DNA of 64,000 nt, taken from contig OZ024740.1 in assembly GCA_964016885.1 (NCBI GenBank), forward strand, positions 440,262,001 through 440,326,000. Reading direction: 5' to 3'. This DNA is from Eledone cirrhosa (taxonomy: Eukaryota). This document shows, piece by piece, positions 27,168-30,791 of the stretch; positions within the stretch are counted from its first letter, which is position 1, and every line of letters begins with the position of its first letter. A program made the position numbers and the translations under genes. A model generated the notes under the pieces. It searched no databases. It worked only from the letters and a program-made list of their open reading frames with translations, and had not been told where the DNA came from.

Positions 27168-27356
27168 GTCATCGTGGATTGGTAGTATCGGTAGAGGGTT
27201 GGACGCCATGCTTTGCAGCATAGTTACGTCCCTTTACGATCTAAGTTCAAATCCCGCCGAGGTTGACTTTGCCTTTCATCCCTACGGGGTCGATAAAATA
27301 AAGTACCAGTAATGCACTGGGTATTTGCTGGCCTTGTGCCTAACGTATAAACAATT
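27168..27356 (+). mobile_element. tRNA-derived SINE, internally deleted variant
   Basis: GGATTGGTAGTATCGGTAGAG...AAGTTCAAATCCCGCCGAGGTTGACTTTGCCTTTCATCC..CGGGGTCGATAAAATAAAGTACCAGTAATGCACTGGG; lacks ~29 bp between CACTGGG and CTGGCCTTGTGCC relative to the 1063 copy. Confidence 0.9.
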
Positions 27357-27470
27357 ATAATAAATGTTCGGTAAACCCATACGTACATATATATGTGTGC
27401 ATGTATGTATATATATACATACTACTGTACGTCTGTACACATATATGTATGTACGTATATATACTTATAT
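27354..27470 (+). repeat. ~120-bp dispersed direct repeat, copy 1 (copy 2 at 30555-30679)
   Basis: ATTATAATAAATGTTCGGTAAACCCATACGTACATATATAT...TACTGTACGTCTGTA..CATATATGTATGTACGTATATATACTTATAT is present at both positions. Confidence 0.92.
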
Positions 27471-27526
27471 TTAGATAACAGCCGTACTAAGAGTGAGAAA
27501 TGAAATTTCGTTTCATTTTTTCCATT

Positions 27527-28021
27527 TATATATATATATATATTATATATATATATATATATATATATTATATATATATTCTTTTACCTGTTTCAGCCAT
27601 CCGGCTGAGGCCATGGTGGGGCACCGCCCTAGGATATATATATTATATATATATATATATATATATATATATATATATATATATATATATATATATATAT
27701 ATATATATATATATATATATACTTATATATATATATATATATATATATACTTATATATATATATATATATATATATATATATATATATATATATATATAT
27801 ATATATATATATTTTATATATATATATATATATATATATATATATATATATATATATATATATATTATATATATATATATATATATTATATATATATATA
27901 TATATATATATATATATATATATATATATATATAAAATATATATATATATAATATTATATATATAAATTATAAATATATTATATATAAATTATATATATA
28001 TATATATACCTATATATATAT
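27527..28021. repeat. Long imperfect (TA)n microsatellite interrupted by a retroelement tail
   Basis: Direct reading; source of the YI-repeat ORFs. Confidence 0.97.
27580..27630 (-). mobile_element. 3' tail fragment of a second cephalopod SINE/LINE family
   Basis: Minus strand GGGCGGTGCCCCACCATGGCCTCAGCCGGATGGCTGAAACAGGTAAAAGA resembles, from memory, the common octopus repeat tail GGCGGTGCTCCAGCATGGCC.CAG..TGACTGAAACAAGTAAAAGA; it has a CAGCC/GGCTG hairpin. Confidence 0.6.
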
Positions 28022-28337
28022 AACGGCGTTGAATTAGTTTTGCGATGTTTTTGATATCAAACAAGCAACACTGACCTAAGAGAAGTATAAATAAATAAAT
28101 AAATAAATAAATACACAAGCACAATAACAACAAACACATATAAACACACACAAATAAACTACGATAGAATACAATAACCCATACATAGTCACCCAAACAC
28201 AAACACACATCAAACAAAACACTATACATACACGCAAACGCATGCGCAGAGAAGACAAAAAATAAACAAATAAATAAATAAATAAACAGACTAAATAAAG
28301 ATGGCGTAAGCATACAATGCAACGGGAGGAAACATAA

Positions 28338-28384
28338 TAACACCACTGACGATGTTGCAGATGTGCAACGAAAGAACTTTGTTA
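28338..28384 (+). ncRNA. Type I hammerhead ribozyme-like motif, imperfect stem I
   Basis: CTGACGA (28346-28352), T, GTTGCA-GATG-TGCAAC (perfect 6-bp stem II), GAAA (28370-28373), G-AA-CTT; TAACA/TGTTA pairs as stem I only with a 3-nt bulge. Confidence 0.55.
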
Positions 28385-28619
28385 GACTATATATATGTGT
28401 TTGTGTCTATATTGTATCTGTATTTTTGACCGTTGGTCAGTCAATGGCAACATTGAGGACCGAATAAATTAAATAAACCGATATAAAAGACACAGAAGCG
28501 AAAAGCAACCAAACAGTGAGTGAGTATGTTCTGTTATTAATTCTGGCAATATTATTACACAAATATGACCCTCCCCAAGTACAACTATATATATATATAT
28601 ATATATATATATATATACG

Positions 28620-29290
28620 TTATTCCGGGTTGAATCGGAGGTAACCACAGTAAGTAAGGTACTCAATACATAGCAGAGTATAACAGTTTTAATATAGATG
28701 AGATTCTACAGGACTAGAACTGTTTCATTCATTAGAAATCATCAGGAATCTGGGTATCAAAAAATAAATATGGTATTTATAGGTCTCTACAAGTGGTAGG
28801 AGAGGGTGGGGAGTGGGATGGGTGCAGGTCATTGGTTGATAGAAAAGGGAATTCATTAAAAGCTAATTCTACAAAGCTATAGTTAATTTTTATTTATATT
28901 TATTTATGTTTTTAGAGTAACAAAGGCAGACAGAATTCTATAAACAGGTTCCGGATGGCATACCATTCCTTGTCAATAAATTTCTCTTAAGCTAGCAGAT
29001 GTCTATAAAATCAGTGGGGGGTCAGTCATGCTCGATAGAATTAAAGAAAAGGGAGATTCTTTAAAAGCTAAAGTCATTAAGGTTCTACTAAGTGACAAAG
29101 GTCTAGGGAATTCTGCAGACAGATTCAAGAGTAACCAATCTTAAAGAGAGAGATGGAGATAGGAGAGGAGATATGAGAGGAGAGATTGGTGAATTAGTTA
29201 GAAGCCAAAGCGTAAAAGCATGTGTTCAATGTGCAATATGCAGTAGAAAGCAGCTAGGTAGCTGGGTTCATGTAGAAGTTAGGTGAGCAG
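28620..29290 (-). mobile_element. Probable Penelope-like element terminal (pLTR) fragment
   Basis: Non-coding segment between (TA)n tracts that carries a minimal type I hammerhead (28701-28751). No recognisable RT or GIY-YIG ORF; boundaries approximate and family inferred from the ribozyme type. Confidence 0.4.
28701..28751 (-). ncRNA. Type I hammerhead ribozyme
   Basis: Minus strand AGATTC-CTGATGA-T.TTC.TAAT.GAA.T-GAAA-CAG.TTCTAGTC.CTG-TA-GAATCT: perfect 6-bp stem I, intact core, 4-bp stem III, GUA cleavage triplet. Confidence 0.85.
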
Positions 29291-29298
29291 AGCTGAAA

Positions 29299-29834
29299 AT
29301 ATTCATTAGTTAAGCAAAGCAAGACCACAAATTCACAAGATATTATTAAAAGATTGTCAACATATTTTAGTTTGATGTAAGGAATGTAGAGAATAATAAT
29401 AATAATATTAATAATAATAATGGTTACCCATAGGCAGATCTCACACAATGCAGCCTCGAAAGATGAATACTGCTTGATTATGGCTGACAACTGATTCAAC
29501 CAAGACACCATAGTAAAAACCAATATATGGAACATTATATTATGTAACATTCTCTCATTATTTTAATTTATATTCCTTTGAAGTTCCGATGAGCCGCTCT
29601 GTCTTTTAAATATGTTAATTATTTTCAACTGAACCAGATCAATTATGATATATAGTCATCTGATCCAGAAATATTATATGGAGTAGCGAAACAATTGGAA
29701 ACGGACATTATTATTATTAATATTATTATTATTATTCTCTACATTCCTTACATCAAACTAAAATATGTTGACAATCTTTTAATAATATCTTCCTTGTGAA
29801 ATTTGTGGTCTTGCTTTGCTTAACTAATGAATAT
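29299..29834. repeat. ~125-bp inverted repeat (arms 29299-29422 and 29706-29834) with ~283-bp spacer
   Basis: ATATTCATTAGTTAAGCAAAGCAAGACCACAAATT..GATATTATTAAAAGATTGTCAACATATTTTAGTTTGATGTAAGGAATGTAGAGAATAATAAT.. and its reverse complement differ only by ~5 bp of indels. Confidence 0.95.
29583..29702 (+). ncRNA. Decayed hammerhead with long stem II insertion
   Basis: GTT-CCGATGA-GCCGCTCTGT...ATGGAGTAGC-GAAAC-AATT-GGA-AAC: stem I GTT/AAC, stem II base pairs and palindromic CAATTG stem III, but U4>C and U16.1>G core changes. Confidence 0.5.
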
Positions 29835-29924
29835 ATATATATATATATACATTTATATATATATATATATATAGTTTTGCGAGGTTTTTTTTATATGAAA
29901 TCGTGTGTCGAAACAAATATTGTC

Positions 29925-29984
29925 ATACTTGGGGAGGGTCATATTTTCTGGCAATATTACACAAATATGACCCTCTCCAAGTAT
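29925..29984. repeat. 60-bp hairpin (22-bp arms, 1 mismatch); right half also at 28541-28581
   Basis: ATACTTGGGGAGGGTCATATTT-16 nt-AAATATGACCCTCTCCAAGTAT; TTCTGGCAATATT(ATT)ACACAAATATGACCCTCCCCAAGTA at 28541. Confidence 0.85.
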
Positions 29985-30092
29985 ATGTATATATATATAT
30001 ATATATATATATATATATATATATATATATAACCTAATATAATTATTCCATATACTGTATCGATTGTGTTGTTATTTCTGTTTACCTTTTAA

Positions 30093-30245
30093 ACATACAC
30101 ACACACATACATACATATATATATATATATATATATATATATATATATATATATATATATATATGATGATGATGAGGAGGAGGAGGAGGAGGAGGAGGAG
30201 GAGGAGGGGGTGAGGGGAAAAGGAGGAGGGGGAGCAGGAGGAGGA
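30093..30245. repeat. Compound (CA)/(TA)n/(GAT)/(GGA)n microsatellite
   Basis: Direct reading; source of the poly-Pro/His ORF. Confidence 0.93.
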
Positions 30246-30407
30246 GTGTACCGGACAAAAGTGAGACTAACCCCAGAAGCACGTCTATGTTTAAAGATAT
30301 TTATCTTCTTTGTTTTGATTCCCTTTAAATCAGAGATGAGGGATACTAGTTATACCAGTGGAGTAAATTACAAGAACGTGTAGACGTGTACCTATAAATT
30401 CAATCAT

Positions 30408-30476
30408 CTGGCAGGAAGGTATACGGTGCTGACGATAGCTAATAAGCTTGAAACTAGTACATCGTTCCTTTGTCAG
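30408..30476 (+). ncRNA. Minimal type I hammerhead ribozyme with palindromic stem III and extended stem I
   Basis: ACGGTG-CTGACGA-T.AGCT.AATA.AGCT.T-GAAAC-TA-GTA-CATCGT; stem I extends via AAGG/CCTT and CTGGCA/TGTCAG; ACTAGT palindrome; GUA cleavage after 30459. Confidence 0.85.
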
Positions 30477-30554
30477 TGTTGAACAAAAGGGAAAGGATGG
30501 TTGCTAAACACTGTACGGCTTAATTCGGGATGTTTGTTTACAAACAAACCGTGC

Positions 30555-30679
30555 ATTATAATAAATGTTCGGTAAACCCATACGTACATATATATATATA
30601 TGTGTGTATGTATGTATATATATATACATAATACTGTACGTCTGTATACATATATGTATGTACGTATATATACTTATAT
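30555..30679 (+). repeat. ~120-bp dispersed direct repeat, copy 2
   Basis: Near-identical to 27354-27470 apart from TA-run lengths and a few substitutions. Confidence 0.92.
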
Positions 30680-30685
30680 ATTAAT

Positions 30686-30791
30686 AATTGTTTCTACTTT
30701 TGGCACAAGGCCAGCAATTACCCAGTGCATTACTGGTACTTTATTTTATCGACCCCGTAAGGATGAAAGGCAAAGTTTACCTCGGCGGGAT
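30686..30791 (-). mobile_element. 5'-truncated tRNA-derived SINE with the same internal deletion as the 27168 copy
   Basis: Reverse complement ATCCCGCCGAGGTAAACTTTGCCTTTCATCCTTACGGGGTCGATAAAATAAAGTACCAGTAATGCACTGGGTAATTGCTGGCCTTGTGCCAAAAGTAGAAACAATT. Confidence 0.9.

What the first reader, a model, noticed from the sequence alone, without database searches (positions are those of the whole stretch)
27168..30791. Hammerhead-ribozyme-rich 3.1-kb cassette bracketed by a ~120-bp direct repeat and tail-to-tail SINEs
Seen: the layout is SINE(+), X, 3.1-kb block, X, SINE(-), with X at 27354-27470 and 30555-30679. The block has no credible ORF but contains four sequence-distinct hammerhead-like motifs (28338+, 28701-, 29583+, 30408+), a 125-bp inverted repeat and a 60-bp hairpin. 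Established: minimal type I hammerheads mark Penelope-like elements and non-autonomous retrozymes. Inference: this is either a composite non-coding ribozyme-bearing mobile unit (X as terminal repeat or unusually long target duplication), or a (TA)n-rich hotspot that collected ends of several different Penelope families.
Basis: partly seen in the sequence, partly recalled or inferred. Interest (0 to 1): 0.75.

Follow-up and report, generated by a model that had tools for sequence, protein, structure and literature searches.

The report
Pile-up of Penelope and retrozyme ends
This stretch is not one new mobile element but an ordinary pile of fragments from several common jumping-gene families that likely landed one after another in TA-rich DNA, in a genome where a sample suggests roughly a quarter of a million predicted self-cutting RNA motifs.

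Summary
The layout is real, but it is not a composite ribozyme cassette. Each piece is a separate high-copy family. Three (A, B, D) are 3' ends of coding Penelope-like elements (PLEs), whose longer copies carry RT and GIY-YIG frames. X is neither a terminal repeat of the block nor a target duplication: it is an internal part of a ~430-nt tandem hammerhead repeat (C, retrozyme-type; 10,046 exact copies of its 31-nt core; one array of ~47 units). Two hammerheads are canonical (28745-, 30429+), one is an atypical family variant (28346+), one has lost its cleavage U here (29586+). The inverted repeat and hairpin are the usual inverted PLE arms. The A|B junction and an inner 150-bp piece are single-copy; the SINE pair is no more alike than random copies. 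Hammerhead density is background: 16 of 80 sampled 10-kb stretches match it; 65 strict motifs in 800 kb (controls 0) extrapolate to ~240,000. Against full independence, the two X copies share two rare variants and may be two arms of one insertion later rearranged. The scan likely found family C before on other DNA (e1-8665316). No RNA data; cleavage untested.

The parts
27174..27358 (+). Full-length SINE of a very common family; its 3' end joins family C at a recurrent site
   Evidence: 120 hits in 43 of 80 sampled stretches; the 23-nt SINE|X junction occurs 51 times exactly; 17 of 20 such loci have family C sequence upstream of the SINE, the window is one of 3 that do not
27354..27529 (+). 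Family C (retrozyme-type) copy 1: X plus 59-nt tail, the 'long' 3' end, followed by (TA)n
   Evidence: contiguous with C units in arrays at 85-94%
27580..27633 (.). Short fragment of another dispersed repeat between (TA)n runs (27527-27579 and 27634-28022)
   Evidence: hits in L051, L073, L100; runs
28023..28590 (+). Family D: 3' end (pLTR) of a coding PLE of Neptune/Nematis type, 28058-28590, preceded by a short inverted piece of its own tail (28023-28061)
   Evidence: 91-96% copies; longer copies run upstream into YVDD RT, CX4CxxC linker and C-terminal GIY-YIG, tandem period 4.28 kb in L138; tail
28338..28390 (+). Hammerhead-like motif 1 (core at 28346): 6-bp stem II, G15.2-C16.2 stem III, predicted CUU site, weak stem I; activity doubtful
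   Evidence: 2,753 exact copies of the 36-nt core; pair counts; same register with a perfect stem I in another family
28618..29128 (-). Family A: 5'-truncated 3' end of a young Hydra-type coding PLE, ending in (TA)n 28586-28617
   Evidence: 98-99% copies; tandem period 5.45-5.55 kb with RT (YRDD) and GIY-YIG frames in L126, L128, L130, L132
28701..28751 (-). Hammerhead 2 (core at 28745), canonical type I, predicted cut between 28707 and 28706
   Evidence: strict descriptor; core kept in 22 of 22 near-full copies; one stem I pair changes on both sides in related copies, A-U 9 / C-G 4 / U-G 2 of 18
29119..29834 (+). Family B: two-armed 3' end of a second Hydra-type PLE; inverted long arm 29119-29422 plus forward short arm 29423-29834. 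This is the '125-bp inverted repeat'
   Evidence: 97-99% copies of 29423-29830; RT and GIY-YIG frames upstream in L140, L141, L143, L145; the family continues into the inverted arm's sequence
29583..29705 (+). Hammerhead-like motif 3 (core CCGAUGA 29586-29592, oversized stem II); window copy has G at 29698 in place of the conserved U16.1, so predicted dead
29873..29985 (.). Second, tiny two-armed family D insertion (inverted tail arm plus short forward arm). This is the '60-bp hairpin'
   Evidence: matches the D 3' end and tail in L047, L053, L055, L058, L063
30250..30398 (.). Piece E: single-copy DNA inside the block (preceded by (TA)n and (GGA)n runs)
   Evidence: 1 match in the genome, the window itself, 1 candidate; 0 hits in 80 sampled stretches
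30399..30681 (+). Family C copy 2: hammerhead 4 plus X, ending at the 'short' 3' end
   Evidence: 92-96% copies, 3,187 candidates, 40 scored; tandem units
30423..30465 (+). Hammerhead 4 (core at 30429), type I with palindromic minimal stem III, predicted cut after 30459; predicted to need a dimer
   Evidence: strict descriptor; 10,046 exact copies of the 31-nt core; pair counts on 71 distinct copies
30682..30791 (-). 5'-truncated SINE of the same family
   Evidence: 93.5% to the left SINE, equal to the median (93.5%) of 65 sampled copies

Best explanation
The block is a nested pile of separate insertions from five common repeat families (three coding Penelope-like elements, one non-coding 430-nt hammerhead repeat, one SINE), likely accumulated because Penelope-type enzymes repeatedly cut and prime at TA/ATT-rich sites, including the TA tails of earlier insertions. 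Shown: family identity of every piece, their 3' ends at TA runs, inverted arms, single-copy junction and filler DNA, background-level hammerhead density. Inferred: target-primed reverse transcription from two fixed RNA sites gives the long and short ends; family C borrows a PLE enzyme (which one is unknown) and would be cut to unit-length, possibly circular RNA by its hammerhead in tandem arrays; A (98-99% copies) came late, into the TA run at B's long end. Open sub-question: the two X copies are either two arms of one C insertion later split by an inversion or replacement (about 55%) or two independent insertions (about 45%); neither makes the 3.1-kb block a mobile unit.
For: Families and coding parents. 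C is a closed tandem unit with no long coding frame in the arrays fetched: about 47 units on one strand over about 20 kb; 12 of 24 loci have a tandem unit upstream and 12 of 24 an inverted arm (two of these are the same locus); 10 of 10 divergent arm pairs typed are one long plus one short end, the PLE tail signature described in PMC8557442 and PMC11167929. No second copy of the composite among the best 40 candidates of each of four searches; A|B junction unique; E and the left flank single-copy. Background: 65 strict motifs in 800 kb, 0 in reversed and shuffled controls; several sampled stretches (L088, L103, L181, L185, L205) hold three or more different relaxed motifs within 3.6 kb.
Against: The two X copies differ at only 2 of 84 non-microsatellite columns and share two minority variants found together in 1 of 52 other loci, so 'all independent' is too simple. 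Only 40 candidates are scored per DNA search, so a diverged second copy of part of the order is not excluded. Pfam found no family in 5 of 5 frames, so the RT and endonuclease calls rest on motifs read from translations. Rfam hammerhead models give no match. The 80 background stretches were picked at round coordinates on large contigs, not drawn at random.
Confidence: 0.88

Rival explanations
1. The 3.1-kb block is a composite non-coding mobile unit, with X as terminal repeat, moved as one RNA that starts and ends in family C sequence and carries cargo.
For: Order X-tail ... hammerhead-X matches a more-than-unit C copy, and SINE-X-tail-spacer-hammerhead-X copies exist (L149, L152, L155, L164); the two X copies are unusually alike.
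Against: No donor or sister copy; pieces have different family ages (A 98-99%, D about 94%); the left copy ends at the normal long end followed by (TA)n; the C spacer of about 110 nt is absent on both sides.
Confidence: 0.05
2. X is a 117-bp target-site duplication made when the block inserted.
For: Direct orientation and high identity.
Against: On the inner side each X continues into exactly the family C sequence that neighbours it in tandem arrays (tail on the left, hammerhead part on the right), which a duplication of host DNA would not give.
Confidence: 0.02
3. The cluster is kept by selection as a multi-ribozyme processing cassette of a host transcript.
For: Two intact cores on opposite strands.
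Against: One motif carries a private inactivating change, the locus is a 9-kb island between long minisatellite arrays, and density equals background.
Confidence: 0.03

Closest known systems
Metazoan non-LTR retrozymes (Cervera and de la Pena 2020, PMC7229834: passages and section 14 read; Li, Clavereau and Pollet 2026, 10.64898/2026.07.22.740005: parts 1-3 of 5 read)
   Same: Family C is a non-coding head-to-tail repeat with one type I hammerhead per unit, dispersed as monomers, dimers and multimers, with a highly self-paired monomer (circular fold -128.7 against -89.5 +/- 5.8 kcal/mol, 0 of 60 shuffles), in a genome with autonomous PLEs.
   Different: Unit of about 430 nt is slightly above the 170-400 nt range given for invertebrates; no likeness to the pLTRs of A, B or D; RNA, cleavage and circles not shown; no cephalopod case in the text searched ('octopus' and 'cephalopod' 0).
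Hydra clade of Penelope-like elements (Craig et al. 2021, PMC8557442: passages and section 11 read)
   Same: A and B have a C-terminal GIY-YIG, CxCX5C linker, CxxC and CxH around the conserved E and N, (TA)n targets and hammerheads; A also has DKT and an RWR version of RWK.
   Different: A's unit is 5.5 kb (a microsatellite-rich untranslated part), not under 3 kb; A has two cysteines in the GIY-YIG core; B's hammerhead has a CCGAUGA core and oversized stem II; no tree was built.
Neptune / Nematis PLEs (features from PMC8557442 passages)
   Same: D has C-terminal GIY-YIG with internal cysteines, CX4CxxC linker, YVDD RT, tandem pLTR structure.
   Different: Clade not resolved; long Asn-rich N-terminal stretch; atypical hammerhead with weak stem I.
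PLE minimal hammerheads and tail signature (Cervera and de la Pena 2014, PMC4209133: parts 1-2 of 4 read; Frangieh et al. 2024, PMC11167929: main text read)
   Same: Hammerheads in pLTRs, mostly as single truncated copies, pairs on opposite strands, palindromic stem III, two reverse-transcription start sites giving ends with and without a tail, ATT-rich targets.
   Different: Tails here are 55-180 nt rather than 30-40; estimated motif number (about 240,000) exceeds the 2,000-9,000 per genome in that paper and the 'up to 120 000' of the axolotl heading in PMC7229834, though descriptors differ.

Membership tests
Non-LTR retrozyme (family C) | Head-to-tail tandem units, each with a type I hammerhead | tested here: met
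   about 47 units in L134/L218/L219; core intact in 44 of 51 near-full copies
Non-LTR retrozyme (family C) | No protein-coding frame; dispersed monomers and multimers | tested here: met
   no frame of 200 aa or more in L134 or L136; 10,046 exact cores; 12 of 80 sampled stretches hold the hammerhead part
Non-LTR retrozyme (family C) | Highly self-paired monomer | tested here: met
   431-nt monomer, 64% paired, 0 of 60 shuffles as stable; part of this comes from the TA-rich hairpin X
Non-LTR retrozyme (family C) | Self-cleavage and circular RNA in vivo | not testable with these tools
   no RNA holder listed
Non-LTR retrozyme (family C) | Likeness to the pLTR of a coding PLE | tested here: inconclusive
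   none to A, B or D; other PLE families of the genome not screened
Hydra PLE (families A, B) | RT followed by C-terminal GIY-YIG | tested here: met
   YRDD and VY..YIG motifs in order; Pfam silent
Hydra PLE (families A, B) | CxCX5C linker; CxxC and CxH around E and N | tested here: met
   both families
Hydra PLE (families A, B) | DKT and RWK motifs | tested here: inconclusive
   A: DKT met, RWR for RWK; B's N-terminal part not recovered
Hydra PLE (families A, B) | Length generally under 3 kb | tested here: not met
   A unit 5.45-5.55 kb; B not measured
Hydra PLE (families A, B) | Phylogenetic placement | not tested
   no reference sequences held
Neptune/Nematis PLE (family D) | CX2-5CxxC linker before a C-terminal GIY-YIG | tested here: met
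Neptune/Nematis PLE (family D) | Phylogenetic placement in one clade | not tested
   no reference sequences held
LTR retrozyme or other composite unit with terminal repeats (whole block) | Several copies with the same ends and inner order; hammerhead inside the terminal repeat | tested here: not met
   X holds no hammerhead
Type I hammerhead (motifs 2 and 4) | CUGANGA and GAAA boxes, NUH site, three stems | tested here: met
Type I hammerhead (motif 1) | Stem I of 4 or more pairs | tested here: not met
   mismatch at the third pair in 22 of 23 distinct copies
Type I hammerhead (motif 3, window copy) | U16.1 of the NUH site and U4 | tested here: not met
   GGA in the window; C4 is the family norm

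The most novel reading that the evidence does not exclude
The two X copies are the long and short arms of a single retrozyme insertion that a Penelope enzyme primed from both sides of a break and that inverted about 3 kb of neighbouring DNA; and this genome, with about 240,000 type I hammerheads from many young PLE and retrozyme families, is the densest ribozyme-bearing animal genome described, where such insertions drive local rearrangement.
Probability: 0.3. Interest if true: 0.55.

Novelty: new member of a known kind. Interest (0 to 1): 0.3.

Why it matters
The locus itself is ordinary for this genome and should not be pursued as a new composite element. What it exposes is of moderate value: a retrozyme-type family with the long/short end signature of PLE reverse transcription, young Hydra-type PLEs with nearly intact frames as candidate drivers, and an estimated hammerhead count above those in the papers read. 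That makes the proposed PLE dependence of animal retrozymes testable with purified protein and the C RNA.

Tried and rejected
Rfam scans: no hammerhead match; the miRNA matches on X are far below gathering scores and reflect TA-rich hairpins. Pfam: no family on 5 frames. Special kinship of the SINE pair: rejected. snRNA-type promoter in family C (it holds an ATGCAAAT octamer; the newt satellite 2 parallel is recalled): no octamer within 500 nt upstream of 5 U2 genes and only AT-rich low-complexity alignments to C; a paper search gave nothing to read on it; unsupported. Expression: no RNA holder listed. Empty allele: contigs and RAD reads were swamped by family copies, and no contig covered E in 4 runs; uninformative. 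A search for an old repeat spanning the supposed inversion breakpoint found the left flank single-copy. The count of unpaired C ends is not used, because the classifier mislabelled array-internal units. Look-up of earlier notes by the C sequence found nothing. Paper searches for hammerheads in cephalopods listed no study on them; 'ribozyme' does not occur in the main text of PMC13282606 (passages only). Supplements were not opened; files S1 and S2 of PMC8557442 may list cephalopod Hydra families and their hammerheads.
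Full report
Setting. The window is G000:C1:440262001-440326000 of a 3.0-Gb animal genome. Most of it is minisatellite; the finding lies in a 9-kb island between arrays. The SINE resembles octopus SINEs (recalled, not tested).

Observation. Both SINEs, both X copies, the 129-column inverted repeat and the 60-bp hairpin are at the stated places. The 24 frames of 60 aa or more are not credible genes. Of four hammerhead-like motifs, a strict descriptor accepts 28745(-) and 30429(+). 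Motif 1 has both boxes and a 6-bp stem II but a family-wide mismatch in stem I (22 of 23 distinct copies). Motif 3 has a CCGAUGA core as family norm and, only in the window, GGA for GUA. Rfam has no hammerhead match.

Every piece is a separate family. Searches of the own genome (40 candidates scored each, of 7,612, 3,187, 2,395 and 2,647) split the block into A (28586-29128, 98-99% copies), C (30399-30684), D (28058-28590) and B (29119-29834). [quoted passage not shown] B and D likewise run into RT and GIY-YIG frames. A and B carry the CxCX5C, CxxC and CxH motifs that PMC8557442 (section 11) gives for the Hydra clade, and A has DKT; D has the CX4CxxC linker of Neptune/Nematis. Pfam recognised none of 5 frames, so these calls rest on motifs. 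The inverted repeat is B's inverted long arm facing its forward short arm, and the hairpin is a tiny D insertion of the same build; PMC8557442 describes such inverted 5'-truncated copies and tails as typical of PLEs.

X. X is an internal part of family C, a closed unit of about 430 nt: hammerhead, X, 59-nt tail, spacer. One array holds about 47 units on one strand; the 31-nt core occurs 10,046 times exactly; X plus tail gives 26 hits in 13 of 80 sampled stretches. Among 24 loci, 9 were classed as ending after X, 7 after the tail, 3 as running on and 5 as other; 12 have an inverted arm upstream. All 10 divergent arm pairs typed were one long and one short end. This fits the two start sites of reverse transcription reported for a lizard PLE in PMC11167929; that a PLE enzyme moves C is inference. 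By the definitions in PMC7229834 and 10.64898/2026.07.22.740005, C is a non-LTR retrozyme on sequence grounds.

No composite unit. The A|B junction has 1 exact match in the genome; E has 1 match; no scored candidate carried the order. The SINEs are 93.5% alike, the median of 65 sampled copies. The SINE|X junction recurs 51 times; in 17 of 20 loci inspected C lies upstream too, often with a short duplication, so it is a SINE insertion hotspot inside C (three of the 20 are one tandem triplicate). The window is one of 3 without upstream C, as expected if a SINE-bearing C RNA was copied (inference).

Background. In 80 stretches of 10 kb taken at round coordinates the strict descriptor finds 65 motifs, with 0 in reversed and 0, 0 in shuffled controls; extrapolated, about 243,000 (bootstrap 168,000-326,000). 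Sixteen of 80 stretches have 2 or more within 3.6 kb, as the window has; with the relaxed descriptor (116 hits; controls 7, 12, 10) 13 of 80 reach the window's 3 and 10 reach 4 or more. Many of these are tandem or inverted copies of one family, but L088, L103, L181, L185 and L205 mix three or more motifs.

Result against full independence. The two X copies differ at 2 of 84 non-microsatellite columns; 4 of 108 other copies are that close to either, and the two shared minority variants occur together in 1 of 52 loci, in both arms of one insertion; pairs from different loci are this close in 12% of cases. The window has one long and one short end, neither with its own inverted arm. They may be the two arms of one insertion, turned into direct order by an inversion of about 27174-30398, or a more-than-unit SINE-bearing copy like L149 whose spacer was replaced. 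I put one event at about 55%. Public contigs did not cover E, so this is open.

Verdict. An ordinary TA-hotspot pile-up of known kinds of elements; the families are new members. Cleavage, expression and the driver of C are untested. Searches for papers on cephalopod hammerheads listed none; supplements were not read.

Noticed in passing
80 sampled stretches L086-L125, L177-L216: About one strict type I hammerhead per 12 kb, with 22 different stem III-to-cut-site sequences; about 240,000 genome-wide by extrapolation.
   Followed up: partly
L180:8460-9800 and L191:5268-6100: Two other tandem hammerhead repeats, periods 310 and 467 nt, each with an inverted copy upstream; they match families in earlier notes by period.
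   Followed up: no
L126, L128, L130, L132: Young Hydra-type PLE with nearly intact frames and about 2 kb of degenerate microsatellite carried inside its 3' untranslated part.
   Followed up: partly
L147-L166: The SINE inserts repeatedly at one site of family C and rides along in later C insertions, including 5'-truncated and inverted ones.
   Followed up: partly
L087, L103, L181, L198: A hammerhead family with G15.2-C16.2 stem III and CUU or CUA site, with a perfect stem I; same register as motif 1.
   Followed up: no
window 28682-28764, run X1: Contigs that go back 78 nt across hammerhead 2 suggest a 78-nt tandem mini-repeat derived from family A; run X6 shows a 202-nt go-back in family B (29464-29665).
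   Followed up: no
family C spacer, L136 about 4200-4290: ATGCAAAT octamer about 90 nt before the hammerhead core; no match to U2 upstream regions.
   Followed up: yes
window 1320-15755, 16234-22315, 31643-64000; L221, L222: Very long strand-biased minisatellite arrays (24-mer x 601, 8-mer x 761, 12-mer x over 2,780) about 2.6 Mb from the contig end.
   Followed up: no
window 22781-24174: Four related short copies next to (TAGA)n/(GA)n runs around a GC-richer piece; possibly ends of another microsatellite-targeting retroelement.
   Followed up: no
G000:C3:307349256-307453739: Tandem U2 snRNA array with a 2.2-kb period.
   Followed up: no
L185:135-578 and 4871-5313: A mirror-image duplication of several kb holding identical C arms and paired hammerheads of other families.
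   Followed up: no
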